Shown here: one piece after another, positions 5,486 through 53,728 of the stretch | Numbering within the stretch: position 1 is the stretch's first letter | Layout of the letters: the number at the start of each line of letters is the position of its first letter | Made by a program: the position numbers and the translations under genes | Origin: a virus | Length of the DNA: 58,693 nucleotides | Virus record (IMG/VR): IMGVR_UViG_3300035698_012504 | Location: 1 to 58,693 of that record | Reading direction: 5' to 3' (one strand) | Notes under the pieces: generated by a model | What the model saw: the letters and a program-made list of their open reading frames with translations, nothing else | Database searches by the model: none | Told to the model about the DNA's origin: nothing

Positions 5486-5501
5486 CATAAGGTAGTGAAT
5501 T

Positions 5502-5818: not shown

Positions 5819-5828
5819 AGGAGATAGT

Positions 5829-6810: not shown

Positions 6811-7037
6811 TATTCGACAACGGTAATAAATTGTTATTTAAAGATTGCTCGTTAGTATATGACTATCTTAAATTATATAATTACATTCACCTTCACCCTC
6901 ACCTTCACCCTCACCTTCACCTTCACCCTCACCCTCACCCTCACCTTCGCCCTCACTCCCGCCTTCCCCTTCACCCTCACCTTCAACCCGAAAAATTATT
7001 TAACTGGGTGTATAATAAAGGAGGAGTTGTGATATGA
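6807..7037 (+). CDS. MIFDN subfamily member with a (His-Leu/His-Pro)n repeat core (76 aa), tail FNWVYNKGGVVI
   Basis: Start moved from 6789 to ATG 6807 (ATGA overlap). Near-identical paralogue at 8556-8786. Confidence 0.85.
   Translation: MIFDNGNKLLFKDCSLVYDYLKLYNYIHLHPHLHPHLHLHPHPHPHLRPHSRLPLHPHLQPEKLFNWVYNKGGVVI
6888..6983 (+). repeat. in-frame hexanucleotide repeat CACCYT (16 units, degenerating at the 3' end) encoding HLHPHLHP...
   Basis: Read directly: cac ctt cac cct cac ctt cac cct ... inside CDS 6807-7037. Confidence 0.9.
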
Positions 7038-7432
7038 TATTTGATACGACGTGTGAATATAACATGTATCAGTATGCATATGGAATGACTACACGTAAGA
7101 ATACAGTGACTAGAGAACATACTAGAATTACTATCCGTTCTCTTAGAGGTTATTGTTTCACATTCGAAAATCTAAGACATCCTCCGAAAGAATATGAAGG
7201 GCATTTTATATCGAGGGACGTTGAAGAGTTTTTAATAATTTATAAAGTAGATAGGATTACAGATGTTTATTACGATTTTATAAGAATAGGGAAAGTAGTG
7301 AGAGGGAAGAATCATTTAGTACGAAATGGAAAGAGAGAAATAATAATAACAACTGGTGTAAATCATACTACATCTGTTCCCAATGTATGTACAATTATAT
7401 TGGCGCTTTGTAGGAAAGGAACAGTCATATGA
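7034..7432 (+). CDS. tandem-array small protein family member (132 aa), tail ILALCRKGTVI
   Basis: ATGA overlaps at both ends. AAAGGAGGAG upstream. Confidence 0.85.
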   Translation: MIFDTTCEYNMYQYAYGMTTRKNTVTREHTRITIRSLRGYCFTFENLRHPPKEYEGHFISRDVEEFLIIYKVDRITDVYYDFIRIGKVVRGKNHLVRNGKREIIITTGVNHTTSVPNVCTIILALCRKGTVI

Positions 7433-7647
7433 TATTTGATAATGATAATAAAATGTTGATCGGAGATCCTACTAAAGCTTATAATACATATTGTTATATT
7501 AATACTCACACATGGGCAATTCAATATCTTAGTATGCATCTTCATACTAAATATCTTAATCTTACTCTTTTCCCACATTCTCGATTCCATCCTAGATTAG
7601 GAACCACATACAAATGGATAATTGAAAATAAAGGGGTCGTGATATGA
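7429..7647 (+). CDS. MIFDN subfamily member (72 aa), tail KWIIENKGVVI
   Basis: N-terminus MIFDNDNKMLIGD. His-rich centre. ATGA overlaps at both ends. Confidence 0.85.
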   Translation: MIFDNDNKMLIGDPTKAYNTYCYINTHTWAIQYLSMHLHTKYLNLTLFPHSRFHPRLGTTYKWIIENKGVVI

Positions 7648-8006
7648 TATTTGAATCGGTTAACATTGATTTGTTTTGGAGAGATGGATTACATTTGAGA
7701 ACATTAAAACATGGTTATACCCACTTCTTTAGAGAAACTTACGTTGATAAAATATTTATGCATGATACATTTATAGGAGATTTATTACTCGAATGTATCC
7801 TTGTCAACCATATAGATTATATAAGAATACGAATTCCAACATTTCCATATAGATCCATGACATATAAATTTGATATGGGTACCGAGATACTCATTCGATT
7901 TGGATCTGGTAATATATTCTGTACGCAGACAAGTAAAAAAGAAGAAAAAATTAAGTGGTTTCAATTTGGAACTTTAGATATCATGACTAGAGGGGTAGTT
8001 ATATGA
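7644..8006 (+). CDS. tandem-array small protein family member (120 aa), tail LDIMTRGVVI
   Basis: ATGA overlaps at both ends. The N-terminus MIFESV is shared with the member at 9960. Confidence 0.85.
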   Translation: MIFESVNIDLFWRDGLHLRTLKHGYTHFFRETYVDKIFMHDTFIGDLLLECILVNHIDYIRIRIPTFPYRSMTYKFDMGTEILIRFGSGNIFCTQTSKKEEKIKWFQFGTLDIMTRGVVI

Positions 8007-8251
8007 TTTATGTATATGATGCATCAGATTCATTACAAGGTATAAGATTAGATGATATTGAATTTTATATATCATCGGATGCAGTATGTGATATGTGTAA
8101 GAGAACAGATATTATGTGTGATAATCAATGTGCTATTTACTTTAATTCATGGCCATTTACAGAGGTGACCAAAGAGTTTTATGTTCCACCACGACCAACC
8201 ATCCCTCTTATGTATAATTGGGTGAGGAGACAGATAGGAGCTGTTGTATGA
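8003..8251 (+). CDS. tandem-array small protein family member (82 aa), tail YNWVRRQIGAVV
   Basis: ATGA overlaps at both ends. The NW tail resembles the MIFDN subfamily. Confidence 0.8.
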   Translation: MIYVYDASDSLQGIRLDDIEFYISSDAVCDMCKRTDIMCDNQCAIYFNSWPFTEVTKEFYVPPRPTIPLMYNWVRRQIGAVV

Positions 8252-8559
8252 TATATTTTACAAATGACACCCAGGGCGGGATGCAACAACATAATATAGA
8301 TGTCTACGTTAAAGATGTGTTACAGTTTTATAGACAAATCTATGATTTTGAACCTTACTATAATATACTAGATCCTATATTAAAGTATGCCCCAATATGT
8401 AGATATACTAGAGATGCTATATTATTTACACAAGAGGTATCCCCTGGTCTTTTTGGGGTTGTGATTAAAGAAGAACATCAAGAATTTCATGGAGTTAAAG
8501 TTACATTGTCTTTTATATGTGGATGGGTAATGCATCAACAACAAGGAGTAATTATATGA
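8248..8559 (+). CDS. tandem-array small protein family member (103 aa), tail VMHQQQGVII
   Basis: Start moved from 8218 to ATG 8248 (ATGA overlap, TAGGAG upstream). Confidence 0.8.
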   Translation: MIYFTNDTQGGMQQHNIDVYVKDVLQFYRQIYDFEPYYNILDPILKYAPICRYTRDAILFTQEVSPGLFGVVIKEEHQEFHGVKVTLSFICGWVMHQQQGVII

Positions 8560-8786
8560 TGTTTGATAACGGTAATAAATTGTTATTTAAAGATTGCTCG
8601 TTAGTATATGACTATCTTAAATTATATGATTACATTCACCTTCACCTTCACCTTCACCCTCACCTTCACCCTCACCTTCACCTTCTCCCTCACCTTCTCC
8701 CTCACCCCCGCCTTTCCCTTCACCCTCACCTTCAACCCGAAAAATTATTTAACTGGGTGTATAATAGAGGAGGAGTAATAATATAA
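8556..8786 (+). CDS. MIFDN subfamily member with a (His-Leu/His-Pro)n repeat core (76 aa), tail FNWVYNRGGVII
   Basis: Start moved from 8517 to ATG 8556 (ATGA overlap). Near-identical to 6807-7037. Confidence 0.85.
   Translation: MMFDNGNKLLFKDCSLVYDYLKLYDYIHLHLHLHPHLHPHLHLLPHLLPHPRLSLHPHLQPEKLFNWVYNRGGVII
8637..8732 (+). repeat. in-frame hexanucleotide repeat CACCYT (second copy)
   Basis: cac ctt cac ctt cac ctt cac cct ... Same length and register as 6888-6983. Confidence 0.9.
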
Positions 8787-9139
8787 TGTATGTAGATTGT
8801 ATGGATAAGGATATTTATCCAGAAGCCATTTAATTAGGATGTTCAAATACATATGATAAGAGTGGAGATACATGCGATCTAATGTTTTGCAACTTCAGTG
8901 AAAAACATCCATATGAATTTCTTATGAAATTAGGAATATCTGATATAAGAATAAAAATATCATATCCAGTTGGAGAGCGAAGAGTAGTTAATTTAATGAT
9001 ACTTGGACTAAAGAGCGGTGATGGAATATATGTAAAGTTCAGCGCACTGAAGACAATAACAATTATGTCTGAAGATGGGGAACGCAAATGGAATGATTAC
9101 ATGGGTTGGTTTTTACAGCAAGGTATATATATTAAATAG
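8786..9139 (+). pseudogene. tandem-array family member with an in-frame TAA at 8831-8833, tail WFLQQGIYIK
   Basis: The TAATG-coupled start gives MYVDCMDKDIYPEAI*. The same frame then continues without further stops into ORF 8882-9139. Total length is 118 codons, typical of the family. Confidence 0.55.
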
Positions 9140-9182
9140 TGACAGAAGGAATCTATTTCACACAACCAAAAAGGAGAGAAGT

Positions 9183-9692
9183 GTGAAGAATATTCATTGG
9201 CCCAAGGCGTGCATCTATATTTTTCTTTTACTGTTTTTATTACTTGCTAATGGGGAAATTGTAGGCGAGTTGAAAAGACCTATAATAGAATCCCAATTGA
9301 GTGCTGCGATAACAATTCCAGTTGTTATATTAGGTTTAAGTCAGAGCATATTCTTGGGATGGCTCATCGGGGCCATCGTCTGCTCATCTATAGGATTTAT
9401 GAATAATCCAATTGAACGTGTAATTGAAGAATTTGATAAAAAAGGAATACGAGCATATTATACAAATATGATATCTTTTTACGGGCTCATTATATTAACA
9501 CCATATAATTTATTTCTGTACTTTTGGCCAGTAGACGCAACTACTACGTTTATATTTGGAAACATTATGTTTTGGGCTGTATCTAGTATTATAATTTATA
9601 AGAATCTATGGGAGAACGTGAAGATTGACAACTTGGTTAAGGAGTGGTTCTTATGCAAGCCCTATCAGATATGTTTAAAATCTCAAAGCTAG
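9183..9692 (+). CDS. multi-pass membrane protein (169 aa) embedded in the array
   Basis: GTG start 9183 preceded by AAAAGGAGAG. Several hydrophobic segments (IYIFLLLFLLLA, ITIPVVILGLSQSIFLGWLIGAIV, GLIILTPYNLFLYFW, IMFWAVSSIIIY). ORF-track start 9075 rejected. Confidence 0.65.
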   Translation: MKNIHWPKACIYIFLLLFLLLANGEIVGELKRPIIESQLSAAITIPVVILGLSQSIFLGWLIGAIVCSSIGFMNNPIERVIEEFDKKGIRAYYTNMISFYGLIILTPYNLFLYFWPVDATTTFIFGNIMFWAVSSIIIYKNLWENVKIDNLVKEWFLCKPYQICLKSQS

Positions 9693-9949
9693 CAGTCGCT
9701 GTATTCATTCTAATAAATGTACTACATGTATTGATGTTTGTTGTAGCTATACCTATAGTAGTTATGTTGTACACTAAACTTAAGCTTATGGGAACTATCC
9801 CAGAGGATGGGATTATACCACTTATAGTATTATTTGGGGGTGGTGCTACTGTTGGCTTAGCATTTTCGTCTATGAAAAAGAAAATTTTAGAGTGTGTGGT
9901 ACCTGAATCTATGCATAATGAAAATAACCCGATAGTGGATGAACTATAA
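9653..9949 (+). CDS. small membrane protein (98 aa), two predicted TM helices
   Basis: ATG 9653 lies 8 nt after AAGGAG. Hydrophobic stretches LAVAVFILINVLHVLMFVVAIPIVVML and IIPLIVLFGGGATVGLAF. Confidence 0.65.
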   Translation: MQALSDMFKISKLAVAVFILINVLHVLMFVVAIPIVVMLYTKLKLMGTIPEDGIIPLIVLFGGGATVGLAFSSMKKKILECVVPESMHNENNPIVDEL

Positions 9950-9959
9950 GGATAAATCC

Positions 9960-10289
9960 ATGATATTTGAATCTGTTAAATCTATTAGCCCATTTAATAG
10001 TAGTAATATAACTAAATACCCATTTGGAGAATCTTTAGTAACATGTCAAGTAGATTATAATCTTAGAAAGAAGTTTAGGATAGGGATAACTGTAATAAAT
10101 CATAACACATATTATAAAGAAAAGGTAATTGTGATTTCCTATTTCCAAACAGATGGTAAGATTAGAAGTGCTGAAATAGGGCCTATACAAAAATCATCAT
10201 TTAGATCCTATTTTACCACTAAAATTATTACACATGGTGAAATCATTAATGCTTTTCTTAAACTGACGGGTAATGGAATAAGTATATGA
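9960..10289 (+). CDS. tandem-array small protein family member (109 aa), tail FLKLTGNGISI
   Basis: Start moved from 9939 to ATG 9960 (MIFESV, as in member 7644). ATGA overlap at the 3' end. Confidence 0.8.
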   Translation: MIFESVKSISPFNSSNITKYPFGESLVTCQVDYNLRKKFRIGITVINHNTYYKEKVIVISYFQTDGKIRSAEIGPIQKSSFRSYFTTKIITHGEIINAFLKLTGNGISI

Positions 10290-10611
10290 TAGTAGATGGG
10301 TTAATCATGGGATCCAACTCATCAGAAGTTAGACTTCAAAAAATGATAATATCTGGTAGCCTCAAACCAGGACAAGAATATATATCTATTATTGATCTTA
10401 CAAAAAAAGAGTAGTATTTTTCATTAGATTTTATGGTGCGCTGGTCTCAGGGCCATTTGATCCACATCAATCCTATATCTCGGTGAGCAGATACATAGAG
10501 ATCGTAGATGTAGACGGTGGATTTAAATTAAAATATATACGAGAAAAATTTAAAACACTATTGATTGGAAATCTATACATTATGATATCGAAACGAGGGA
10601 TTCTAATATAA
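10286..10611 (+). pseudogene. last array member, split at an A7 tract: 10286-10414 (42 codons) plus the -1 frame 10396-10611 ending in the family tail YIMISKRGILI
   Basis: ATGA-coupled start MIVDGL. The 0-frame stops at TAG 10412. The -1 frame is open from 10396 and carries the tail. The joined length is about 108 codons. Confidence 0.6.
10402..10408 (+). other. A AAA AAA slippery heptamer / homopolymer (candidate -1 frameshift or indel site)
   Basis: The 0-frame reads aca aaa aaa gag tag. Phasing fits X XXY YYZ, with a 0-frame stop 1 codon downstream. Confidence 0.5.
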
Positions 10612-11560: not shown

Positions 11561-12328
11561 ATGAGAAGGAAAGAAGTGTTTGTCATAGGGCTTGGAAATC
11601 CTGGGAACGCGGCCTCAATAGATTCTAGGCATAACGTTGGACAACTTGCCGTCGGTAGAGCACTTGCAATATATGGTGACTTACGTCCTCCAGGATCTGA
11701 GTCTCATAGGGACCGAATACAAAATGAAGATATTAAATTAAAATTGAGAAGAGCACCTATGTCAGTAAAAGATACAAGTATATTAAAATTTGGAGAGAAT
11801 CGAAGATCATATAAATATTACAGATCAACCGTGCTGCTCTATGGAATGACCATCAATTTTATAGAACCGGTTAATGTATATATGAACAGTTCTGGAAGAT
11901 TTATACGTGCGCTTAGATTAGATACAGATGAGTTTCTAGAAAATTTACTTATTATTCATGATGATATAGATTTACCAATTGGACGAGTGAGATTCCGTAC
12001 TGGGGGAGGGGACGGGGGACACAATGGAATAAAGAATATACGAGTAAATTTAGGAGATGATTTCTCTAGATTAAAAGTAGGAGTTGGAAGACCAACAGAT
12101 GATACAGTAGAACAATATCTAACTAGAGAAATGTCACTTAAACATAGGAAGCATATTAATAAGGTAATAGATACTATATTGAAAAAGTGTATGCTCGATT
12201 GGGCATTATATGGAACAGCGCATTGTTCTGTTAAGTACAACAAACTATTTGTTAATGGAAGTGGTAATGTTACTACATGGAAGAAACATCAAAAGGAGCT
12301 TGAAGAACTTGTGCGAAAAGAAGTCTGA
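11561..12328 (+). CDS. pth: peptidyl-tRNA hydrolase (255 aa, with an insertion and a C-terminal extension)
   Basis: Pth motifs VIGLGNPG..SRHNVG and HDDIDLPIGRVRFRTGGGDGGHNGIKNI. Confidence 0.85.
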   Translation: MRRKEVFVIGLGNPGNAASIDSRHNVGQLAVGRALAIYGDLRPPGSESHRDRIQNEDIKLKLRRAPMSVKDTSILKFGENRRSYKYYRSTVLLYGMTINFIEPVNVYMNSSGRFIRALRLDTDEFLENLLIIHDDIDLPIGRVRFRTGGGDGGHNGIKNIRVNLGDDFSRLKVGVGRPTDDTVEQYLTREMSLKHRKHINKVIDTILKKCMLDWALYGTAHCSVKYNKLFVNGSGNVTTWKKHQKELEELVRKEV

Positions 12329-13925: not shown

Positions 13926-14189
13926 ATGTATGTATCCGAACAATTCATAAATAATTTACAAGAGAAGGGGCGCTTTGTTAGGGTTGCTAAGAAGCTATTC
14001 AAAAAGAAAAAACCTGAAGCACCACCTCCACCAAAAGGCATTAAAGAAAAACTTCAGCGTAAGTTTGCATCAATGAAAAATAATGCTGCTGAAAAAGCGA
14101 AAAAGAAAAAGAGAAAAAATACTATGCATGCGACAGCTGGAGTCGGAGTAGTTGGGATGGCTGCATTAGGAGCCCAAGACAGGCACTAA
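13926..14189 (+). CDS. MY[IV]SE-family small protein: Lys-rich with a Gly-rich hydrophobic C-terminus (87 aa)
   Basis: N-terminus MYVSEQFINNL is shared with 43963, 49862 and 53000. C-terminus ATAGVGVVGMAALGA. Confidence 0.7.
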   Translation: MYVSEQFINNLQEKGRFVRVAKKLFKKKKPEAPPPPKGIKEKLQRKFASMKNNAAEKAKKKKRKNTMHATAGVGVVGMAALGAQDRH

Positions 14190-18610: not shown

Positions 18611-19177
18611 ATGTCTAAAAAACTTTCATATGAATATGTAAAGCAATATTTTGAAGAAAATAGTTGCGAATTATTAGAAAGGGAATATGATAATTGTATG
18701 ATTAAAATGAAATATAAATGTTCTTGTGGAAGAATAAGTAAAATAAGTTTTAATAATTTTAAAAGTAAACATAGATGTAGTGATTGTGGTGGGAATGAAA
18801 AACATTCTTATGAATATATAAAACAATATTTTAAAGATAATAATTGTGAATTATTAGAAAAAGAATATATTAATAATAAAACTAACATGAAATATAAATG
18901 TGAATGTGAAATATTACTAGGATATTCTAGAAAAGATATTTTAGAGTATCTTAAGAAGGATCCAAATTTTGATAACTGGGTAAAGAATTCATCCAGCTGG
19001 CACATAGATCATATTATTCCAATAAAAGCATTTGTAGAAAATGAAATAACTAATCCGAAAATAATAAACGCTTTAGATAATTTAAGAATTATACACTGGA
19101 AAGAAAATTTACAAAAAGGTGCTACATTTAATAAGAATGAACTTCAAAGTTATGTGCAATCGAAAGGTATATTATGA
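18611..19177 (+). CDS. HNH homing-endonuclease-like protein, family copy 1 (188 aa, internally shortened)
   Basis: Two N-terminal YEY[VI]KQYF..CELLE..MKYKC.C modules. C-terminal HNH core WHIDHIIPIKAF...NLRIIHWKENLQKG. Confidence 0.75.
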   Translation: MSKKLSYEYVKQYFEENSCELLEREYDNCMIKMKYKCSCGRISKISFNNFKSKHRCSDCGGNEKHSYEYIKQYFKDNNCELLEKEYINNKTNMKYKCECEILLGYSRKDILEYLKKDPNFDNWVKNSSSWHIDHIIPIKAFVENEITNPKIINALDNLRIIHWKENLQKGATFNKNELQSYVQSKGIL

Positions 19178-20746: not shown

Positions 20747-21434
20747 ATGGGTAAAAAATTAACTTATGAATATGTTAAACAATACTTTAAAGATAATAAT
20801 TGTGAATTGTTAGAAGATGAATATATTAATTCTAGGACTAAAATGAAATATAAGTGTTCATGTGGGAATACATCTGAGATTAGATTTAGTGATTTTAAAA
20901 ACGGTCATAGATGTAATAAATGTGGGACTAAAAGGACCCGTGATAAATTAAGTCATAGTTATAAATATATAAAGCAATTATTTAAAGATCAGGGGTGTGA
21001 ATTATTAGAAAAAGATTATGTTGATAATCATACTAATATGAAATATATATGTTCTTGCGGTAACTCTGCAGAAATAACTTTTAACAGATTTCAATATGGA
21101 CATAGATGTATGAGATGTGGAAATGATAAGATATCAGGTCATAATCATCATAATTGGAACCCTGATAGAAATGTTGTTAGGAAGACAAAAGAGATACACA
21201 ACTTAAGTGCGTCATATAAAAATAACTACAGAAAGAAACATAACATCTAAAGACGTGCATATAGATCATATAATTCCGGTAAAAGCATTTGTGGAAAATG
21301 GGATATTTGATTTAGATATAATCAATGATGATAAAAATTTACAGTTGCTTTCCAGTAGGGAAAATTTAAGTAAAAGTGGTAAATATAATCAGGAAGATCT
21401 TGTAATATTTTTAAAGGAAAGGGTATCGGTATAA
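20747..21434 (+). pseudogene. HNH homing-endonuclease family copy 2, split by a frameshift (20747-21250 / 21207-21434) and internally deleted
   Basis: The N-terminal modules and NWNPDR are in one frame. The HNH core VHIDHIIPVKAF...NLQLLSSRENLSKSG is in the +1 frame. The linker present in copies 3 and 4 is missing. Confidence 0.6.
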
Positions 21435-26315: not shown

Positions 26316-26319
26316 TAAA

Positions 26320-31056: not shown

Positions 31057-31082
31057 AAAGGCTAGGGATAGAGAAATATTAA

Positions 31083-32628: not shown

Positions 32629-32629
32629 T

Positions 32630-33085: not shown

Positions 33086-33087
33086 AT

Positions 33088-33573: not shown

Positions 33574-33583
33574 GGATATAGTT

Positions 33584-34114: not shown

Positions 34115-34128
34115 GAGTATTAGAGGAT

Positions 34129-34914: not shown

Positions 34915-34924
34915 AGGATTCAAT

Positions 34925-36213: not shown

Positions 36214-36215
36214 TT

Positions 36216-37659: not shown

Positions 37660-38478
37660 ATGAAATCGATTAGCGACAAGTTATTAGAAAATTATTTTAA
37701 TAGTGGTGGTCTAGCTATACCCCAAAAACATTGGTTGAGAAATAAACCAATTGCACATAAAGGTTTATGGACACCAGATAATCCAAGTAATATTCCAGAG
37801 AATAGTCTTCCTGCAGTAGAAAATGCGATTAGACATAAATATGCAGTTGAAGTAGATATACAGTTATCATTAGATGGAGAATTAGTAGTATTTCATGACT
37901 TATTTTTAAATAAACTATGTGGAATAGGTGGGACAATTTCTCAATATACTCTGAAGCAATTAAAAGAATTCAAACTTTCAGAAACAGAATATACAATTCC
38001 AACATTAGAAGAAGTATTAGAACTTACATCTAAAAAAACACCCGTTCTTGTAGACATTAAAGGAGATGTTATGGGGAAGCAAGGAACTGCAAAATTATTG
38101 GCGCACGAGTTAAAAAATTATAAAGGGCATGCTGCCATGCATTCTTTTAACTTTAGTGACTTAAATTACTTCAAACGAGTTGCCCCCAATATTCTTAGGG
38201 GACAAATAATATCTGACTTCAATAAACAAGATGTATCGTTCATTCTTAAATTATTATTAAGAGGAGCAGCCAATTTATTTGAGGCCAAAGGAGATCCTCA
38301 TTTTATTTCATTGGATGTAAGGTCTAAAGTGCAAAGAATCATTAAGTCAGTATGGGCTAATAAAAGAGGCGGAGTAATATTGGCCTGGTTGGTTGATACT
38401 AAAACAATGGAAGCAGTATCAAGGGGATTTGCAGATAACATTATATTTGAAAGAATTAATCCCAAACAACCGTGGTAA
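37660..38478 (+). CDS. glycerophosphodiester phosphodiesterase (GDPD) family protein
   Basis: IAHKG....PENSLPAVENAI..KYAVEVDIQLSLDGELVVFHD, the GDPD catalytic signature. Confidence 0.8.
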   Translation: MKSISDKLLENYFNSGGLAIPQKHWLRNKPIAHKGLWTPDNPSNIPENSLPAVENAIRHKYAVEVDIQLSLDGELVVFHDLFLNKLCGIGGTISQYTLKQLKEFKLSETEYTIPTLEEVLELTSKKTPVLVDIKGDVMGKQGTAKLLAHELKNYKGHAAMHSFNFSDLNYFKRVAPNILRGQIISDFNKQDVSFILKLLLRGAANLFEAKGDPHFISLDVRSKVQRIIKSVWANKRGGVILAWLVDTKTMEAVSRGFADNIIFERINPKQPW

Positions 38479-39032: not shown

Positions 39033-39558
39033 AATTCTAAATAAAATTTTATATAGTGTGCTCGATATTATCAAATATGTGTTTATTAACAAACACAAAA
39101 AAATTGATTACTCTCAGCAACGATGGGATAGACACTATCTGAAGATGGCTAATTTTGTTGCAAGTAAGTCTAAAGATAATAGTACTCAAGTTGGTTGTGT
39201 TATTGTCGGCCCCTCGCATGAAGTAAGATCGACTGGGTATAATGGTATGCCTAGAGGCGTAGAAGATTCTATTAGTAAAGTTCCAAAAAGATTTGAGAGA
39301 CCAGAAAAGTATAAATGGTTTGAACATGCTGAACGAAATGCTGTTTATAATGCAGCTCGTTGTGGTACACCCCTCGAAGGATGTATAGCATACATAGAAT
39401 ATTTTCCTTGTACAGACTGTGCCAGATCATTAATTCAATCAGGTATAATTAGAATAGTGGTTACTCATCATCCAGACTTTGAAGAAAGATATGCTGAGGA
39501 AATGAAAACGTCTAAGGTAATGTTATATGAAGCAGGAGTAATTATAGATGTCTATTAG
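38965..39558 (+). CDS. dCMP deaminase (zinc-dependent); start uncertain
   Basis: HAERNA and PCTDCA zinc motifs. The conserved WDRHYLKMA N-terminal helix needs a start upstream of 39130. Candidates are ATG 38965/38980 (overlapping DHFR) or GTG 39058. Confidence 0.85.
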   Translation: MSTKKMKKILTILSFWKWNLTSRILNKILYSVLDIIKYVFINKHKKIDYSQQRWDRHYLKMANFVASKSKDNSTQVGCVIVGPSHEVRSTGYNGMPRGVEDSISKVPKRFERPEKYKWFEHAERNAVYNAARCGTPLEGCIAYIEYFPCTDCARSLIQSGIIRIVVTHHPDFEERYAEEMKTSKVMLYEAGVIIDVY

Positions 39559-40033
39559 TAATCAGTTTTTAAATGAGTTAAGCACCTCTGATTTCAGAGT
39601 TCTACCTGCCACAGAAGAACTAGTCAAAAAAGTATTTGATAATAAAATACATGCTGAAGATTATGTGAATATGTTGAAAGAGGGAGATACTGGAAAGTTT
39701 GTATTCAGTAATAAGAATGATGATTATATAGGACATATAATGGTTAAGGTTAATGAACACAAACACAGAGAATTATCAGTACTATTTATACAAAAGAAAT
39801 ATAGAAGAAGTGGATACGCCCAGTTCCTTATAAATCTATACCCAAAACTTCAAGTGTTATATACAGAGGTAGATAATAAAGAATCTCAACGATTGTATAC
39901 CAAACTCGGGTGGGTGAATAGTGGAATAAAAGGACATTTTGATTCTAAAAATTATGATCATATATGGATCTTATTTTATAAAAAGAAATATATAAAGATA
40001 AAAGAATTAGATGTGTATGAAAAAGGAGTTTAA
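39548..40033 (+). CDS. GNAT-family N-acetyltransferase (putative)
   Basis: LSVLFIQKKYRRSGYAQFLI acetyl-CoA-binding-like motif. Confidence 0.5.
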   Translation: MSISNQFLNELSTSDFRVLPATEELVKKVFDNKIHAEDYVNMLKEGDTGKFVFSNKNDDYIGHIMVKVNEHKHRELSVLFIQKKYRRSGYAQFLINLYPKLQVLYTEVDNKESQRLYTKLGWVNSGIKGHFDSKNYDHIWILFYKKKYIKIKELDVYEKGV

Positions 40034-43874: not shown

Positions 43875-43961
43875 ATGAGTGTTTTAGAAATTATCACAGC
43901 GATTATTAACTTTTTGTCAATGATACTGTCAATTCTAGCTGGGTTGGACATATCTATTTAA
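43875..43961 (+). CDS. 28-aa hydrophobic peptide (below the ORF-track cutoff)
   Basis: AAAGGAGAG 5 nt upstream. MSVLEIITAIINFLSMILSILAGLDISI. The stop lies 1 nt before the next ATG. Confidence 0.45.
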   Translation: MSVLEIITAIINFLSMILSILAGLDISI

Positions 43962-43962: not shown

Positions 43963-44340
43963 ATGAACAGTTCTAAATCCTTTATAGAAGCGAATCTACG
44001 CAAGGTCGCAGCTGCTGAAGATAAGATGGGTGGGTTTAATAAAACTACTCAGTCTGATCAAATTACTATGAATATTAAGACGGCTATCAATCGACAATCT
44101 GATAGATTAAAAGTATGTAGTGGTAGAAGTAATCCTATTGCTAAACTAGAATGTGAGGTCAAGATATATAGACGGCTTGTCGGATTCATAGGAGGCCTAT
44201 CTGGGAAGTGTAATAGAGACGCTAATCCAGATAGATGTAAAGAAAAAGTTTTAAAGTTTAGAGATAATTATCAAGAAACTTTGAAACAACGTGAGTTGAA
44301 ATTAAATACTTTAAAAGAAAAGGCAAGGAAAGGTAACTAA
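43963..44340 (+). CDS. small basic Cys4-domain protein (125 aa), MxxS[EK]xF[IL] family
   Basis: N-terminus MNSSKSFIEANL. C-x11-C-x18-C-x8-C pattern shared with 49862 and 53000. Confidence 0.7.
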   Translation: MNSSKSFIEANLRKVAAAEDKMGGFNKTTQSDQITMNIKTAINRQSDRLKVCSGRSNPIAKLECEVKIYRRLVGFIGGLSGKCNRDANPDRCKEKVLKFRDNYQETLKQRELKLNTLKEKARKGN

Positions 44341-45844: not shown

Positions 45845-46570
45845 ATGCTAACCTGGAATCAAGTTTTAACATATGTAAAAGGTAGATTGGCTCTTCCATC
45901 ATCCTTCATAGAGAAGACAGATGAAGAGATCAAAGATTGGTGTAAGCTCACATCTCTTAAAGAGTTTAGTCAATACTATCCAGATTCAGAACGTACAAGT
46001 GTACTTCCTCATATAGCAGAGTATCAACACGATACTAGAAATAGTTGGTATTATTTCTTCGATGAAGAAAACAGTGAGATTCTGGGGATTAAAGAATGCT
46101 ATTGGCCATGCACTGATAATTTTATCTCAGGCCACCCACCTACAGGAGCAACTAGTTTTGAAGGTATGAAATGGTGGTCTTTGTCTGTATTTAAAGCAAG
46201 ATTTTTTTCACCTTTCTCTGCATGGAGTAAGACATATAGATTTAGAGCTCCTAATATTGTAGAGGTATTAGGAGACGATAGTATAAGTACATTAGCTACT
46301 AATTTTGTTGTTGAATATGAAAGAGTTCATCCCGATGATCTTAGAAAGATCCCAGTATCTCTTCATAGAGTGTTTATGGATCTTTGCCTAGCTGATACAA
46401 TGATTATGATAGGAAGTATTCGCAGAGGATATACTGAGATTAATACCCCATTTGGTCAAATTCCATTAAATGCTGACGCTCTCCTAAGTGAGGGACAAGA
46501 AATGCGAAGAGATTTGATAGAAAAAATGGAAAGAGGTAGTTTGCCAGCCGTTATAATCGATATTGGATAA
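45845..46570 (+). CDS. possible neck / head-completion protein (T4 gp13-like N-terminus)
   Basis: VKGRLALPSSFIEKTDEEIKDWCKLTSLKEFSQYYP resembles the gp13-type pattern RLG.P...VELT..QI......AL..F..Y. From memory only. Confidence 0.3.
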   Translation: MLTWNQVLTYVKGRLALPSSFIEKTDEEIKDWCKLTSLKEFSQYYPDSERTSVLPHIAEYQHDTRNSWYYFFDEENSEILGIKECYWPCTDNFISGHPPTGATSFEGMKWWSLSVFKARFFSPFSAWSKTYRFRAPNIVEVLGDDSISTLATNFVVEYERVHPDDLRKIPVSLHRVFMDLCLADTMIMIGSIRRGYTEINTPFGQIPLNADALLSEGQEMRRDLIEKMERGSLPAVIIDIG

Positions 46571-48421: not shown

Positions 48422-48449
48422 GAGAAGTAGCAATGGAGAAGTAGCAATG
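48422..48449 (+). repeat. perfect 14-nt tandem duplication GAGAAGTAGCAATG x2 spanning a start codon
   Basis: Read directly. The junction creates GGAG 8 nt upstream of ATG 48447. Confidence 0.9.
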
Positions 48450-48947
48450 GAAAAGAAAACATATGTAAGTGAACGGAAAATTGAAGAACTTCTAAGTCCA
48501 GAAGTTTTAAAAGAAGGTAGTTATTATGGAGGGGGTACTATCATTCAGGCAGAAGATAGATCAAAAAAAGTAGGTTGGCAGCTGTTGGCTGGTGCTGCTA
48601 CATCGTATATGCTTTTTGATTCAGGATTACCTAAAAAGAAGGGAGAAATGTTAGGGGCAAACATAGCACTTTTTCCAAAGGGTGGGCTCTCAAGTAAGGT
48701 GGTCGCCGATGCAAAAGGAGTTAAAAATATAGATTGTAATGTTAGATGGAATTCTGGTTCCAATCCATATCATAAGTTTACCGTAGAAGTTAAAGGGGCA
48801 ACATATGAAATAGTTGCTGATGCAGATGCAGGGAATGCTATGAAATTTTGGGGGCCAATATTTACTGGGATGTTTCTCACCTTGTTTTGGAGCATTCCAT
48901 TAGCAGCATTTCTATCGTACACTGGAACTATAACAAGAATAAAATAG
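48447..48947 (+). CDS. hypothetical protein with a C-terminal transmembrane helix (166 aa); start 48447 or 48420
   Basis: C-terminus FWGPIFTGMFLTLFWSIPLAAFL. GGAG lies 8 nt upstream of 48447. Confidence 0.6.
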   Translation: MEKKTYVSERKIEELLSPEVLKEGSYYGGGTIIQAEDRSKKVGWQLLAGAATSYMLFDSGLPKKKGEMLGANIALFPKGGLSSKVVADAKGVKNIDCNVRWNSGSNPYHKFTVEVKGATYEIVADADAGNAMKFWGPIFTGMFLTLFWSIPLAAFLSYTGTITRIK

Positions 48948-48959: not shown

Positions 48960-49862
48960 ATGAATCCAGTCTGGTTTGAGAACAATAAAAAATATCAGGA
49001 CGAACTAAAGTCCCTTAGAAAGTTTAGAATAAATCCAAACGATATATGTCATATTGTCATAACCCATTTCAATATTAATCTAAGTAAAAACGTAGGGCAT
49101 ACTGGAAGAGAATATAAACGAAATTGGCAAAAGCCAATTCTTAAACAAGGAATTGGTAAAAAATGGATGCAACAAAGAACAGAATTATTTGATCAAATTT
49201 GTTATCCATCTATGTTAAATCAAACGAATCAGAATTTCGAATGGTTTACTTTTTTTGATAAGGATACAACTGATATAAAATCATACAGAAAATATAATCG
49301 AATGCATCCAATGCTTATACCATATAAGGATCCATTTAGATATCAGACACACATAATACAAAATCTCCTTATTGATCGAGGCATTAAAAAGAAGTGGTTT
49401 ATATTCACAAAGTTAGATAATGATGATGCTCTTAACAAAACATTTATAGATAGACTACAAAACATTTGGCTTCCGTATTGTATAAAACATAATAGAGAAT
49501 TTTCTATGGTTTGTTTTACAAGTGGCGTAATGGCCCTAAAGAGACCCGATGGAAAAAGTAAACTCATGACCAAAGAAGATAGATATGGACCATTCGTAAA
49601 TACAATAGAGAAATTTAATAAAGATTACAAGAAGTTTAAAACATGTTGGCATAGCTATCATACTACTATGCATGACAAAGCTTTTCCAGAGAGTGTAGTT
49701 AGATACACAGATAAGAGTGATCCTATGTGGTTTATATACGATCACGAATTTAATTTGTGTGATAGAGATCCAAGATTAAAGGAAAAGACCGATTATACTG
49801 GGACAGAGAAAGACCTAATAGAAAGGTTTAATATTAATCCTAAATACGTGAGGTTAAAATAA
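48960..49862 (+). CDS. putative rhamnosyl-transferase-like glycosyltransferase, paralogue of 34129
   Basis: WMQQRTELFDQICYPSMLNQTNQNFEW and TKLDNDDALNKTF. Confidence 0.4.
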   Translation: MNPVWFENNKKYQDELKSLRKFRINPNDICHIVITHFNINLSKNVGHTGREYKRNWQKPILKQGIGKKWMQQRTELFDQICYPSMLNQTNQNFEWFTFFDKDTTDIKSYRKYNRMHPMLIPYKDPFRYQTHIIQNLLIDRGIKKKWFIFTKLDNDDALNKTFIDRLQNIWLPYCIKHNREFSMVCFTSGVMALKRPDGKSKLMTKEDRYGPFVNTIEKFNKDYKKFKTCWHSYHTTMHDKAFPESVVRYTDKSDPMWFIYDHEFNLCDRDPRLKEKTDYTGTEKDLIERFNINPKYVRLK

Positions 49863-50158
49863 TGTATATATCTGAGAAGTTTATAGAGAACACAGTAAAT
49901 TCTTATTTTTCTTGGAGGTATGTCGGAACCTCTGTAAGAAAGGCGAAGTCTGTTTGTAATAAATATAAAAGTAATCCCTCAAAGTATAACTCATGTATGG
50001 TAAGAGGATTGAGCCATTATAGACGTACAGTTAAATCCAATGTGAGTAAACATTGTGGTAAAGGAAAAACTCCCCAACATAAAAGAAGCTGTATAAACGT
50101 GGCTAATAAAATCATCTCTAGTTTTACCAATAAAATTGAAAAATATAAAGGTAGATAA
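49862..50158 (+). CDS. MY[IV]SE-family small basic Cys4-domain protein (98 aa)
   Basis: N-terminus MYISEKFIENT. C-x12-C-x19-C-x11-C. TAATG overlap. Confidence 0.7.
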   Translation: MYISEKFIENTVNSYFSWRYVGTSVRKAKSVCNKYKSNPSKYNSCMVRGLSHYRRTVKSNVSKHCGKGKTPQHKRSCINVANKIISSFTNKIEKYKGR

Positions 50159-50159: not shown

Positions 50160-50720
50160 ATGAACTCTAAGGAAAAAGGTGGACGGTTTGAACGAAAAGT
50201 TGCTAGAGACCTTTCTAAGCTTTGGAGTGATGGGAAGCGGGATGATCTTTTTTGGCGTTCTCAATCTAGCGGTGGAAGACATACTATCAGAGCTAAGAAA
50301 GGGTTAGTTACTGAAGGGCAAGCTGTAGATATAGCATCCACATCTAAAGAGACAGCTATTTTTTCTGAAAAAGTAATTGTAGAGTGTAAACATTACAAAG
50401 AAATTAATTTATGGGACCTCATTACTGGTAGTGAGGAGACAGGGCTTCGGGGATGGTGGAATGGGACTAAAGAGATAGGATTGTCAGAACGTAAACATCC
50501 TATACTTATTGCAAAACAAAATTATAGACCAGAATTGTTTATATGTGAAAGTACTCTCACTTGTAATCTAAAAGAATATATTACTCTTGATATAAAAGCG
50601 ATGTTTTTAGATAAATGGAAAGACACAGTAGATATATATTTATTTGAAGATATCCTTAAGTGTAGTTCAGAAAGTTTTAAAGATATGATTAATATCATAG
50701 GAGAAAATAACAATGCATGA
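50160..50720 (+). CDS. Hjc-like PD-(D/E)XK nuclease (Holliday-junction-resolvase-like)
   Basis: KGGRFERKVARDL ... VDIAS ... VECKHYK, i.e. the KG..FER / D / E.K arrangement. ATG 50160 follows the upstream stop. Confidence 0.5.
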   Translation: MNSKEKGGRFERKVARDLSKLWSDGKRDDLFWRSQSSGGRHTIRAKKGLVTEGQAVDIASTSKETAIFSEKVIVECKHYKEINLWDLITGSEETGLRGWWNGTKEIGLSERKHPILIAKQNYRPELFICESTLTCNLKEYITLDIKAMFLDKWKDTVDIYLFEDILKCSSESFKDMINIIGENNNA

Positions 50721-50859
50721 ATCTAATATGTTTATAGATTATTTAGAAGAGAAATCGGCGGTAATAGTAGGAGTGGGAGGGGCGGCAGTGGCGGCAGGTG
50801 GTGCTGGATATCTAGCATATAGAAGTATGAAAAAGAAACAAGCAGCGAAAAAGAAATAA
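50713..50859 (+). CDS. 48-aa Gly/Ala-rich membrane peptide with a basic tail (below the ORF-track cutoff)
   Basis: ATGCATGA overlap with the upstream stop. SAVIVGVGGAAVAAGGAGYLAY then RSMKKKQAAKKK. Confidence 0.45.
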   Translation: MHESNMFIDYLEEKSAVIVGVGGAAVAAGGAGYLAYRSMKKKQAAKKK

Positions 50860-51155: not shown

Positions 51156-51482
51156 ATGAAAAGATCTATTTCGGATATATTTTTAAATGAAGGATTACAG
51201 ACTTCAAAAGTATCAATAGAGTTAGCAGAATTTGATAACATCTCAAAGGCTGTTAGTAAATTAAAAAAAGTTGCAGATAAATATACAAAGCAAGAAGAGC
51301 AGTTAAATTCTGGTGGGGCTGATGATTTACCAGAATTTGAATTACAAATCAGTAAGCCTATGTTTAAAACTAAATATAAAGGTAATAATGAACTATTAAT
51401 AACTTTAGTTCGGTTAGTAGATATTACCAATCATAAATTAGTTTATGAGGAAAGAGTTATTACGAAAATAAAGGTAATATAG
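51156..51482 (+). CDS. hypothetical protein (108 aa)
   Basis: TAGAGGAA RBS. Confidence 0.6.
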   Translation: MKRSISDIFLNEGLQTSKVSIELAEFDNISKAVSKLKKVADKYTKQEEQLNSGGADDLPEFELQISKPMFKTKYKGNNELLITLVRLVDITNHKLVYEERVITKIKVI

Positions 51483-52199: not shown

Positions 52200-53009
52200 A
52201 TGAATAGAAAATATAATCAAAAATATGTTGAAGAATATTTTAAAAAATATGAATGTAAACTAATTGATACCTATAGAAGTACTAAATATCCGATAAAATT
52301 TAGGTGTTCCTGTGGAAATATATCATTTATAAAATTTCTTCATTTTAAAAAGAAACATAAATGTAAAAAATGTAATTATGCAGAAACTAATAAATATAAA
52401 AAACATACTCAGGATTATGTTGAAGGGTATTTTAAAGAAAATGGGTGCGAATTATTAGATAACTACAGGAATGATAAATCTACATTAATTTACATCTGTT
52501 CTTGTGGAAACACTTCAAATATAAGATTTTCAGATTTTAAGAAAGGTCAGAGATGTATGAAATGTGCTATAAAAAAGAGATCGGGAAAGAATCATTATAA
52601 TTGGAATCCAGATAGGCAAAAAATAGAAGTAAGGAGAAAAGTAGACGTAGCATGCAGGTCTCTAATATATTGTACATTAAAAGCAACAGGTCATAAAAAA
52701 ACATGCAAAACAGAAAACATGCTTGGATATTCTAGAGGTGACTTTTTAAATAAACTCAAAAGAGATCCATTATTTGAGAATTGGAAGAATAACTCTTATA
52801 ATTATCATATAGATCATATATTTCCAATAAAATCATTTATAGATGAAAAAATATATGATCCTAAAATAATAAATGCCCTTGATAATTTACGCATATTACC
52901 AAGTCATAGTAATTGGAAAAAGAGTTCAAAATGCGATAAACTTTTGTTTAATAAATATTTAAAAAATACCACCACAGATTATATCGAGGAGGAAATCATA
53001 TGTACATAA
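52200..53009 (+). CDS. HNH homing-endonuclease-like protein, family copy 3 (269 aa, full length)
   Basis: Two zinc-ribbon modules, NWNPDR linker, and HNH core YHIDHIFPIKSF...NLRILPSHSNWKK. Confidence 0.75.
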   Translation: MNRKYNQKYVEEYFKKYECKLIDTYRSTKYPIKFRCSCGNISFIKFLHFKKKHKCKKCNYAETNKYKKHTQDYVEGYFKENGCELLDNYRNDKSTLIYICSCGNTSNIRFSDFKKGQRCMKCAIKKRSGKNHYNWNPDRQKIEVRRKVDVACRSLIYCTLKATGHKKTCKTENMLGYSRGDFLNKLKRDPLFENWKNNSYNYHIDHIFPIKSFIDEKIYDPKIINALDNLRILPSHSNWKKSSKCDKLLFNKYLKNTTTDYIEEEIICT

Positions 53010-53728
53010 GTGAAAGTTTTTTGATGAGCGTAGAATTTAAACGCGCTCTAGGAGATCTTATGGAAGCTCTAGTCGGAGAAGAACTAGATGAGCCAGGATC
53101 CATTCAAGAAATTTATGAGATTAGCATAAATAAAATTGTAACAGATGATACAGTTAGTACAGAAGAAATGATAGATAGATTAAACATCTGTGAAAATTTA
53201 TTTGATACCTTTACCGAACACATTCAAGAACTATTATTAACAGAGACATCTAGAGAGGGGTTAATGAGTAGAATTGATGATAGGCAATCTCAGATAGATG
53301 TTCTAAGTGGTCCTTCTAAAGGTAAGATAAGAGATATTCCTAGGATGGGTACAAAATTTGTTGATACAATGGATCTAGTCATGGCAAAAGTTAATGATAT
53401 AAGTAAAAGAGCAAAAGAAATTCACGGGGATTGGAAACATATTAAAGGTACTGCTGCACTAGTATCTTCTATAGCAGTAATTGGTATTATAGCATTAGTA
53501 ACTAGAAAATTATATAGGAAGCATGTACATGGTGAGTGCCAGAAATATAGTGGTAAGGATTTATATATTTGTAAAATACAAAGATCAAAAGAAATAGAAG
53601 AAGCATTATTATCTCAGATGTCAAAATGCGATAAAACAGATAAGCCTAAATTATGTAAACGTAAAATAGAAGACACAATGAAGAAAATCAGAAAAGATAG
53701 AGATAAATGGGAAAAGAAGTTATTATAA
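53000..53728 (+). CDS. MY[IV]SE-family protein with a central TM helix and a C-terminal Cys4 domain (242 aa)
   Basis: N-terminus MYISESFLMS. TM helix AALVSSIAVIGIIALV. C-x10-C-x18-C-x8-C. Confidence 0.7.
   Translation: MYISESFLMSVEFKRALGDLMEALVGEELDEPGSIQEIYEISINKIVTDDTVSTEEMIDRLNICENLFDTFTEHIQELLLTETSREGLMSRIDDRQSQIDVLSGPSKGKIRDIPRMGTKFVDTMDLVMAKVNDISKRAKEIHGDWKHIKGTAALVSSIAVIGIIALVTRKLYRKHVHGECQKYSGKDLYICKIQRSKEIEEALLSQMSKCDKTDKPKLCKRKIEDTMKKIRKDRDKWEKKLL

What the first reader, a model, noticed from the sequence alone, without database searches (positions are those of the whole stretch)
13926..14189. Shared N-terminal peptide M-[YN]-[IVS]-S-[EK]-x-F-[IL] on four otherwise different proteins
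The proteins starting at 13926 (MYVSEQFINNL), 43963 (MNSSKSFIEANL), 49862 (MYISEKFIENT) and 53000 (MYISESFLMSV) share this N-terminus. The Ser is encoded by TCC, TCT and AGT in three MY[IV]SE copies (43963 also uses TCT), so conservation is at the protein level, not a nucleotide initiation signal. Sizes range from 87 to 242 aa and the downstream sequences differ. A short conserved N-terminal peptide on diverse cargo is how some phages address proteins to a common destination or processing step, for example capsid-targeting or propeptide sequences cleaved by the prohead protease.
Basis: partly seen in the sequence, partly recalled or inferred. Interest (0 to 1): 0.55.

Follow-up and report, generated by a model that had tools for sequence, protein, structure and literature searches.

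The report
Shared ten-residue address tag on phage proteins
An uncultured large phage puts the same ten-residue peptide at the start of many unrelated proteins; it closely resembles the tag phage T4 uses to load proteins into its head, but loading has not been shown here.

Summary
All four ORFs start as described, with synonymous and TCN/AGT serine codon variation. A scoring matrix trained only on other genomes ranks P1, P3 and P4 at the top of 103 window N-termini. It also picks out a GNAT acetyltransferase (39548) and ORF 51156.

The peptide defines a lineage of uncultured low-GC large phages. Its consensus is M-[YF]-[ITV]-S-E-x-[YF]-[IL]-x-E, and conservation stops at codon 11. In relatives it heads DsrC-like, helicase-like and EF-Tu-domain-2-like proteins, and tandem small basic proteins inside a baseplate module.

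"Otherwise different" is only partly right. P2, P3 and P4 share a C-terminal four-cysteine domain from a 22-cluster family.

Best explanation, inferred and not shown: a T4-type capsid-targeting propeptide. Aromatic-7, I/L-8 and E-10 match the mapped residues of T4's MKTYQEFIAE. [IV]-S-E-5 mirrors T4 Alt's ITE-6 cleavage site. The lineage is distantly related to AR9/phiR1-37-type jumbo phages. Those encode a gp21-type protease, and the phiR1-37 capsid protein is cut after MLQE.

No protease, capsid gene or proteome is available for this phage. I class it as a new variant of a known kind.

The parts
13926..14189 (+). P1: 87-aa very basic protein (pI 10.7). N-terminal peptide MYVSEQFINN, Lys-rich middle, Gly/Ala-rich hydrophobic C-terminus (ATAGVGVVGMAALGA).
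   Evidence: PSSM 22.5 bits. Orphan in the 5.8-billion-protein collection. No Pfam or PHROG hit.
43963..44340 (+). P2: 125-aa basic protein. Degenerate peptide MNSSKSFIEA plus the C-terminal four-Cys domain. No Shine-Dalgarno of its own; starts 1 nt after a small hydrophobic ORF.
   Evidence: PSSM -0.3 bits, p 0.014.
43875..43961 (+). 28-aa hydrophobic ORF (MSVLEIITAIINFLSMILSILAGLDISI) with a strong Shine-Dalgarno, apparently translationally coupled to P2.
49862..50158 (+). P3: 98-aa basic protein (pI 10.3). Peptide MYISEKFIEN plus the four-Cys domain.
   Evidence: PSSM 21.5 bits. Orphan.
53000..53728 (+). P4: 242 aa. Peptide MYISESFLMS, acidic helical region, hydrophobic helix (about residues 158-178), YRKxxHGEC, then the four-Cys three-helix domain.
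   Evidence: 22 family representatives were found with a query lacking residues 1-12. Residues 170-242 are predicted at pLDDT 95-98.
39548..40033 (+). GNAT acetyltransferase starting MSISNQFLNE: F7, L8, N9, E10, matching the lineage consensus at residues 3-11.
   Evidence: Pfam PF00583, E = 1e-8. PSSM 14.1 bits.
51156..51482 (+). 108-aa protein starting MKRSISDIFLNEG. The peptide is offset by two residues.
   Evidence: PSSM 6.7 bits, at the null 99.9th percentile.
48447..48947 (+). Probable true start of ORF 48366-48947: MEKKTYVSERKIEE. Degenerate peptide (AGT Ser) on a 166-aa protein with a hydrophobic C-terminus.
   Evidence: Best 'internal' PSSM hit, 13.8 bits. A GGAGA Shine-Dalgarno lies 8 nt upstream, and this start lies beyond the end of the upstream gene.
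37660..38478 (+). Glycerophosphodiester phosphodiesterase starting MKSISDKLLE (L8-L9-E10). Marginal member.
   Evidence: Pfam GDPD 3e-18 with the domain starting at residue 42; PHROG tail-fiber family 5e-13. PSSM 1.9 bits, p 0.006.
50713..50859 (+). 48-aa protein MHESNMFIDYLEE... followed by a Gly/Ala hydrophobic helix and a Lys-rich tail. Weak look-alike; same build as a 36-aa member of the L024/L209 cluster.
   Evidence: PSSM not significant.
45845..46570 (+). Context: virion structural protein (phrog_18911). In LPJP1 and IMG/VR locus L203 this gene lies next to the head maturation protease and major capsid protein.

Best explanation
The peptide is a ten-residue N-terminal address tag used by one lineage of uncultured, low-GC, large (about 180-240 kb) myovirus-type phages. 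Its consensus is M-[YF]-[ITV]-S-E-x-[YF]-[IL]-x-E.

The most likely function is that of the T4 capsid-targeting sequence. In that model the tag binds the scaffolding core of the assembling prohead, so whatever protein follows it is enclosed. A gp21-type head maturation protease then removes the tag by cutting after Glu, at [ILV]-S-E5 and/or [IL]-x-E10. The mature cargo stays with the packaged DNA and is delivered into the next host cell. The cargo would include small basic proteins, membrane-active proteins, the four-Cys family and some enzymes.

Shown here: the peptide exists, is confined to N-termini, is under protein-level selection, has a sharp ten-residue boundary, heads unrelated cargo, and recurs across several genomes.

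Inferred: binding to the core, cleavage, packaging and ejection.
For: 1. N-terminal specificity. Four of 5 six-frame matches in the window follow a start Met. In about 130 kb of lineage DNA, 22 of 26 core matches are at ORF starts, about 10 of them not selected by my ATG-anchored search patterns.
2. Protein-level selection and a sharp boundary. Third codon positions vary, Ser is TCN or AGT, and information falls to zero at codon 11 and upstream of the Shine-Dalgarno.
3. Unrelated cargo. DsrC (Pfam 7e-24), an EF-Tu-D2-like protein, a phrog_62 helicase-like protein of 654 aa, the window GNAT, and many orphans.
4. An independent test. HMMER with P4 lacking its first 12 residues found 22 family representatives, and about 13 of 20 full-length ones start with a recognisable copy.
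5. Match to T4. IPII and IPIII start MKTYQEFIAE. There, targeting maps to residues 4 and 7 and processing to residues 8 and 10 (PMC9026906). The new consensus has an aromatic at 7, I/L at 8 and E at 10. T4 Alt is cut at ITE-6 (PMC5694885), compared with [IV]SE-5 here.
6. Like the T4 internal proteins, the cargo genes are scattered among non-structural genes, are orphans while the tag is conserved, and are enriched for basic proteins: 70% have pI above 9, against 41% of background.
7. Lineage. The window is syntenic with a 236-kb IMG/VR contig at 40-48% amino-acid identity. Tag-bearing contigs carry split multisubunit RNA polymerase genes. The window has a phrog_18911 virion protein that neighbours the head protease and capsid gene in LPJP1 and L203. 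The phiR1-37 capsid protein is annotated as mature from Ser87, that is, cut after MLQE, and the aligned column reads ILQE, ILME or NIME in relatives.
8. In L024/L209, six tagged small genes lie in tandem inside a baseplate operon, which suggests late, virion-linked expression.
Against: - No prohead protease, scaffold or capsid gene of this phage or its close relatives could be reached. The scan with AR9-type capsid proteins returned none of the tag-bearing contigs.
- No tagged gene lies within 10 kb of any of the 36 capsid loci it did return.
- None of the four reported window copies has Glu at position 10 (N, A, N, S). P2 and P3 have F-I-E9, whose P3 residue is Phe.
- Some cargo (DsrC-like, GNAT) is not a known kind of packaged protein.
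- Several tagged proteins have hydrophobic helices, which would also fit a membrane-related role.
- The tandem clusters lie beside baseplate genes, not head genes.
- Similarity to the T4 tag is a pattern over about 4 positions, not statistically demonstrable homology.
- No cultured relative carries the tag, so no proteome exists.
Confidence: 0.5

Rival explanations
1. The peptide is an address or recognition tag for some other common partner, not the capsid interior. Candidates are a baseplate or tail assembly site, a phage or host chaperone, a timed-degradation protease (an N-terminal degron), a membrane insertion route, or an intracellular phage compartment.
For: The cargo is diverse, which fits any tag. 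Clusters sit in baseplate modules. Many tagged proteins carry a hydrophobic helix: P1, P4 and its family, 48447, 50713, and the L209 36-aa and 128-aa proteins. No tagged genes lie near the capsid genes of related clades. DsrC and GNAT are unusual as packaged cargo.
Against: No known degron, secretion signal or tail-docking signal has this form. The coincidence with the functionally mapped T4 tag positions 7, 8 and 10, and with two Glu-terminated [ILV]-x-E sites, is not explained by this rival. Ejection proteins with transmembrane helices after a propeptide are known, for example SPN3US gp47.
Confidence: 0.22
2. The shared N-terminus is simply the best-conserved remnant of common descent. The proteins would be fast-diverging paralogs of one family, and the peptide would be a structural or functional part of that family rather than a transferable tag.
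For: P2, P3 and P4 are paralogs with a shared four-Cys domain. The P4 family carries the peptide across 22 clusters. In more distant phages (L163, L165) only the P4 homolog has it. Small tandem members in L209 could be duplicates. L029 shows truncated and duplicated copies.
Against: The same ten residues head proteins with different Pfam or PHROG domains: DsrC, GNAT, EF-Tu D2, a helicase and GDPD. Where a domain is recognisable, the domain match begins after the peptide: DsrC from residue 34 and GDPD from residue 42. Conservation stops at residue 10 even between clear orthologs (P4 against the L026 226-aa protein).
Confidence: 0.12
3. The conservation is a nucleotide-level signal at the start of the mRNA, such as a translation enhancer, a repressor operator or a recombination handle, with the peptide as a by-product.
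For: The phage does have a nucleotide-level start motif elsewhere: ATGA-overlap junctions give MI[FYV]xD starts at 386-10414. Truncated duplicates hint at recombination near the tag.
Against: Third positions are free. Ser switches between TCN and AGT. F/Y and I/L/V alternate through non-synonymous but conservative changes. There is no conservation upstream beyond a generic Shine-Dalgarno. Start contexts differ among the copies: 14-nt gap, 1-nt gap, TAATG overlap, 10-nt overlap.
Confidence: 0.03

Closest known systems
T4 capsid-targeting sequence (CTS) of internal proteins IPI/IPII/IPIII and the propeptide of Alt (Mullaney and Black 1996; reviewed in PMC9026906, PMC3012670, PMC5694885)
   Same: - A 10-residue N-terminal peptide on otherwise diverse, often small and basic, non-essential proteins whose genes are scattered among non-structural genes.
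- Aromatic at 7, I/L at 8 and Glu at 10.
- A second [I]-[ST]-E site like Alt's ITE-6.
- Hypervariable cargo with a conserved tag.
   Different: - The sequence is different (MYISExYLxE against MKTYQEFIAE).
- The host phage is not a T4-like virus but a distant relative of AR9/phiR1-37-type jumbo phages.
- The cargo list appears larger and includes enzyme-like proteins: GNAT in the window, DsrC-like and helicase-like proteins in relatives, and marginally a GDPD.
- The window's four copies lack E10.
- Packaging and cleavage are untested.
Propeptides of ejection and inner-body proteins of phiKZ-like giant phages (phiKZ, 201phi2-1, SPN3US; PMC5694885)
   Same: Large phages with multisubunit RNA polymerases and a gp21-type protease cutting after Glu. 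Paralogous ejection proteins have identical N-termini (SPN3US gp53/gp54, MANFVKSKLARESVE). Some have a transmembrane helix after the propeptide (gp47).
   Different: Those propeptides are mostly 80-130 residues long and cut at [SAG]-x-E. They are shared only between paralogs, not spread over unrelated domains.
N-terminal packaging signal of phage P1 DarB (PMC9024508)
   Same: An N-terminal segment is sufficient to send a large helicase/methylase-type anti-restriction protein into the capsid. A tagged helicase-like protein occurs in L029.
   Different: The signal is about 30 residues with no shared consensus among cargo, and packaging depends on other Dar proteins.
Encapsulin cargo-loading peptides
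   Same: A short conserved terminal peptide directs diverse enzymes into an HK97-fold shell.
   Different: The peptide is usually C-terminal, is not cleaved, and the system is a cellular nanocompartment rather than a virion.

Membership tests
T4-type capsid-targeting propeptide (CTS) | Short (10-20 residue) peptide at the extreme N-terminus of several proteins of one phage | tested here: met
   Five robust and three or four weaker copies in the window. Conservation ends at codon 11.
T4-type capsid-targeting propeptide (CTS) | Carried by proteins that are otherwise unrelated | tested here: met
   GNAT in the window; DsrC, EF-Tu-D2-like and helicase-like proteins and orphans in relatives. However, P2, P3 and P4 are paralogs.
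T4-type capsid-targeting propeptide (CTS) | Ends in a prohead-protease site ([LI]-x-E in T4) at the tag boundary | tested here: inconclusive
   The lineage consensus has [IL]-x-E10, and all MY[IV]SE copies have [IV]-S-E5. Window copies P1-P4 lack E10; GNAT 39548 has L-N-E10. Actual cleavage is unknown.
T4-type capsid-targeting propeptide (CTS) | The phage encodes a gp21-type head maturation protease | not testable with these tools
   Not in the window or in 13 kb of flanks. Distant relatives LPJP1 and L203 have one. The rest of the genome could not be fetched.
T4-type capsid-targeting propeptide (CTS) | Tagged proteins are found in virions with the tag removed, and the tag suffices to package a reporter | not testable with these tools
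   The lineage is uncultured. There are no homologs in 50,697 cultured phage records.
T4-type capsid-targeting propeptide (CTS) | Sequence homology to the T4 tag MKTYQEFIAE | tested here: inconclusive
   Only M1, aromatic 7, I/L 8 and E10 coincide. The peptide is too short for a statistical test.
P4-type four-Cys family (unnamed; 22 clusters at 50% identity) | C-x10-12-C-x18-19-C-K-x-x-x-P-x-x-C followed by a basic helix, usually preceded by a hydrophobic helix and YRxxxxGxC | tested here: met
   P4 has the full architecture. P2 and P3 have the Cys4 domain only. There are four invariant Cys and a near-invariant Pro. The model is confident.
AR9/PBS1/phiR1-37/LPJP1-type jumbo phages | AR9-type major capsid protein, split multisubunit RNA polymerases, phrog_18911 virion protein | tested here: inconclusive
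   phrog_18911 is present in the window. RNA polymerase beta fragments are present on a tag-bearing 182-kb contig. No AR9-type capsid gene was recovered from tag-bearing contigs.

The most novel reading that the evidence does not exclude
The tag is not a capsid-loading signal. Instead it is a general sorting code by which this phage lineage sends dozens of proteins, including metabolic and modifying enzymes and membrane proteins, to a destination not yet described for phages. Examples would be an intracellular phage compartment, a dedicated export or insertion route, or a programmed-degradation system. It would be recognised through a ten-residue N-terminal peptide.
Probability: 0.12. Interest if true: 0.85.

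Novelty: new variant of a known kind. Interest (0 to 1): 0.6.

Why it matters
If the tag is a capsid-loading signal, a simple sequence rule would list the proteins an uncultured giant-phage lineage injects into its host. That cargo is normally only found by virion proteomics of cultured phages. The list would include candidate anti-defence or host-takeover factors: small basic proteins, a four-Cys family, a GNAT, and helicase-like and DsrC-like proteins. It would show that the T4 strategy of one tag with hypervariable cargo exists far outside T4-like viruses, on a larger scale. It would also offer a ten-residue handle for loading foreign proteins into large capsids. If the tag addresses something else, it marks an unknown sorting system.

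Tried and rejected
- PHROG and Pfam scans of P1-P4 found nothing.
- Word-index homology searches for P3, P1 and the GNAT returned only the query itself.
- tblastn of P4, its C-terminus and P0006 against cultured phages found no match.
- A megablast of an 8-kb window segment against cultured phages found no match.
- The T4 late promoter TATAAATA is not enriched: 26 observed against 21 expected.
- My first guess that the L024 cluster sits in the portal/protease/scaffold slot was wrong. PHROGs show tail sheath, tube, hub and gp25-like baseplate genes, and the '522-aa portal' is a homing endonuclease.
- The Staphylococcus S6 and Listeria LPJP1 neighbourhoods have no MYISE-type starts.
- A capsid-protein profile scan of IMG/VR gave 36 loci, none from tag-bearing contigs and none with tagged genes.
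It yielded one new member, L075.
- One IMG/VR scan was wasted re-fetching known sequence.
- A Foldseek search of the P4 model against viral structures gave no significant match.
- RiPP or bacteriocin leader peptides were considered and rejected. Only 10 residues are conserved, and the cargo includes proteins of up to 654 aa, some with recognisable enzyme-type domains.
- Sec, Tat and lipoprotein signals were rejected. The peptide has no basic n-region or hydrophobic core.

Full report
**The observation**

The window is 31.6% G+C. Essentially all its genes lie on the + strand behind Shine-Dalgarno sites, which is typical of a phage. The four ORFs exist exactly as reported:
- P1, 13926-14189, 87 aa, MYVSEQFINNL
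- P2, 43963-44340, 125 aa, MNSSKSFIEANL
- P3, 49862-50158, 98 aa, MYISEKFIENT
- P4, 53000-53728, 242 aa, MYISESFLMSV

Ser is encoded by TCC, TCT, TCT and AGT respectively. Four of those are directly after the start codon of these ORFs.

**The peptide defines a lineage**

None of the four proteins has a Pfam or PHROG match. P3 and P1 are orphans in a collection of 5.8 billion proteins.

Degenerate DNA patterns for the peptide were scanned across IMG/VR. Most hits were chance, but a few contigs carried several Shine-Dalgarno-led genes starting the same way:
- IMGVR_UViG_3300035698_015122 (30.6 kb; loci L024 and L209)
- 3300022701_000122 (182.8 kb; L028, L029, L032)
- 3300022697_000186 (236 kb; L030, L033)
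- 3300022696_000071 (201 kb; L026)
- a metagenome contig, L075

L030 is syntenic with window positions 44-51 kb at 40-48% amino-acid identity. The shared genes are the exonuclease, the phrog_18911 virion protein, a PDDEXK protein and a LigD_N protein. The window therefore belongs to this lineage.

Twenty-two N-termini give the consensus M-[YF]-[ITV]-S-E-x-[YF]-[IL]-x-E. Third codon positions vary freely, and Ser is TCA, TCT, TCG, TCC or AGT. Information content drops to zero at codon 11, and upstream of the start only a generic ribosome-binding site is conserved.

In about 130 kb of lineage DNA the core motif occurs 26 times in six frames. Twenty-one follow a Met and one follows a GTG start. 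About ten of these N-terminal cases were not selected by my ATG-anchored search patterns.

I then built a scoring matrix from the non-window N-termini only and applied it to all 103 window proteins. The top scores were:

| Window ORF | Score (bits) |
|---|---|
| P1 | 22.5 |
| P3 | 21.5 |
| GNAT acetyltransferase 39548-40033 (MSISNQFLNEL) | 14.1 |
| P4 | 11.8 |
| 51156-51482 (MKRSISDIFLNEG) | 6.7 |

The null 99.9th percentile is 6.5 bits. The best 'internal' hit is MEKKTYVSERKIEE at 48447. It has its own Shine-Dalgarno and lies beyond the end of the upstream gene, so it is probably another true start. P2 scores only -0.3 bits.

**The cargo**

P2, P3 and P4 share a C-terminal module, C-x10-12-C-x18-19-C-x8-11-C. 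Among 298 lineage ORFs this pattern occurs only in these three, in the 226-aa P4 ortholog in L026, and in one chance match.

I ran a full HMMER search with P4 lacking its first 12 residues. It found 22 representatives at E <= 0.001, all built as variable region, hydrophobic helix, YRxxxxGxC, then the four-Cys domain. P2 and P3 align to the domain, with four invariant Cys and a near-invariant Pro. AlphaFold models the domain as three helices at pLDDT 95-98, and no fold match was found. About 13 of the 20 full-length hits start with a recognisable copy of the peptide, although the query did not contain it.

Beyond this family the peptide heads clearly unrelated proteins:
- a DsrC-like protein (Pfam 7e-24, domain from residue 34)
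- an EF-Tu-domain-2-like protein, and weak GNAT and C92 matches
- a 654-aa phrog_62 helicase-like protein
- the window GNAT and, marginally, a GDPD phosphodiesterase
- many small, highly basic orphans

Seventy per cent of tagged proteins have pI above 9, against 41% of other ORFs. Several carry a Gly/Ala-rich hydrophobic helix. In L209, six tagged small genes lie in tandem between a gp25-like and a gp6-like baseplate gene. L029 holds a truncated 23-aa copy and a gene with two successive copies of the peptide.

**What kind of phage**

The window's clamp loader is only about 33-36% identical to those of T4-like cyanophages and a Ralstonia jumbo phage. Three further lines of evidence are more telling.

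1. Tag-bearing contigs carry split multisubunit RNA polymerase beta genes, and a P4-family locus carries a beta-prime fragment.
2. The window's 241-aa protein at 45845-46570 is a phrog_18911 virion structural protein. It has weak homologs in Listeria phage LPJP1 and Yersinia phage phiR1-37.
3. In LPJP1 and in IMG/VR locus L203, that gene neighbours a head maturation protease (phrog_3014/207) and an AR9-type major capsid protein.

The GenBank record of phiR1-37 states that its capsid protein matures at Ser87. I mapped this to cleavage after M-L-Q-E. The aligned column reads ILQE in AR9 and BpSp, ILME in S6 and NIME in LPJP1. The protease of this wider group therefore appears to cut after [IL]-x-E, as T4 gp21 does.

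**Comparison with T4**

I read the T4 N-termini directly from NC_000866. A vertical bar marks the cleavage site where it is documented, or otherwise the first [LI]-x-E site:

| T4 protein | N-terminus |
|---|---|
| IPII, IPIII | MKTYQEFIAE\|A |
| Alt | MELITE\|LFDE |
| gp24 | MAKINELLRE\|S |
| gp22 | MLKEQLIAE\|A |
| gp67 | MEGLIE\|A |
| gp21 | MNEPQLLIE\|T |

The literature supports the following points:
- The ten-residue IP tag is sufficient for packaging.
- Targeting depends mainly on residues 4 and 7, and processing on residues 8 and 10.
- Asp at position 10 blocks cleavage but not targeting (PMC9026906).
- The IPs are cut once and are highly basic (PMC8442874).
- Alt loses six residues at ITE-6 (PMC5694885).

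The new peptide has the same length, an aromatic at 7, I/L at 8 and Glu at 10. It also has an [IV]-S-E5 site like Alt's. T4's IP genes are likewise scattered among non-structural genes.

**Best explanation and its limits**

I consider a T4-type capsid-targeting propeptide the most likely function, with confidence about 0.5. Only the sequence-level properties are shown. Binding to a prohead core, cleavage, packaging and ejection are inferred.

Weaknesses:
- No head gene or protease of a tag-bearing genome could be retrieved. The capsid-profile scan gave 36 loci, none from tag-bearing contigs and none with tagged genes.
- The four reported copies lack Glu-10.
- DsrC-like and GNAT cargo is unusual for packaged proteins.
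- The clusters sit near baseplate genes rather than head genes.
- Hydrophobic helices are frequent among the cargo.

Rivals:
- Another common destination or partner (0.22).
- Plain paralogy (0.12). This is true for P2-P4 but cannot explain the unrelated domains.
- A nucleotide-level signal (0.03). Codon variation contradicts it.
- Chance, which is excluded.

**Novelty**

[quoted passage not shown] What is new here is a different ten-residue consensus, in an uncultured lineage far from T4, spread over a larger and more varied set of proteins, together with a previously undescribed four-Cys family. I found no description of this peptide in the papers searched. I class it as a new variant of a known kind, with interest about 0.6.

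Noticed in passing
window 386-10414: About 20 small tandem genes are joined by ATGA start/stop overlaps with a conserved junction (AGGAnT..GTrAT ATG ATA TTT GA). Most therefore begin MI[FYV]xD. Five are clear paralogs (MIFDNGNKLLFKDC at 2123, 3962, 6807, 7429, 8559). This is a nucleotide-level or translational-coupling effect, unlike the MYISE tag.
   Followed up: partly
window 43875-43961: A 28-aa hydrophobic ORF (MSVLEIITAIINFLSMILSILAGLDISI) with a strong Shine-Dalgarno ends 1 nt before P2. P2 has no Shine-Dalgarno of its own, so the two are probably translationally coupled.
   Followed up: partly
window 46574-48415; L024 3329-4897; L033 5985-7904; L030 491-2191; L209 11810-13531: A 520-640-aa endonuclease (phrog_3339/phrog_559) with a C2H2-like N-terminus recurs at 30-49% identity in different modules (baseplate, head, replication) of related phages. 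It behaves like a mobile homing element.
   Followed up: partly
window 18611-19177, 20747-21434, 52200-53009, 54473-55291, 57179-58075: Four paralogous genes start M.KK.[ST]YEYVKQYF, one of them apparently split into 20747-21250 and 21207-21434. A separate LEM-3-type GIY-YIG gene lies at 57179-58075.
   Followed up: no
window 40573-43803: The ribonucleotide reductase is 1076 aa and matches its PHROG profile in two separate stretches. This suggests an intein or another insertion.
   Followed up: no
window 24654-37487: A long island of glycosyltransferases and P-loop sulfotransferase-like genes, some of them paralogous (29766/33584; 27287/28108/53730; 34129/48960).
   Followed up: no
L029 7208-7279 and 7867-8589; L038 126-155: L029 has a 23-aa truncated duplicate of a tagged gene, and a gene with two successive copies of the tag (MYISKQFINEK...MFLSEQYLTEK). 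L038 has a Shine-Dalgarno followed by MFISE and then a stop. These point to duplication or recombination at the tag-coding segment.
   Followed up: no
L036 19092-19928 (LPJP1) and L203 7492-8337: The head maturation proteases of these relatives begin MTEEKGYIIMES and MNEIVGYIINES. The Y-I-I-x-E segment resembles both the tag and the N-terminal LIE-9 site of T4 gp21.
   Followed up: no
window 11561-12328 and 56158-57222: The phage encodes a peptidyl-tRNA hydrolase (Pfam 6e-34) and a Volactin-family protein.
   Followed up: no
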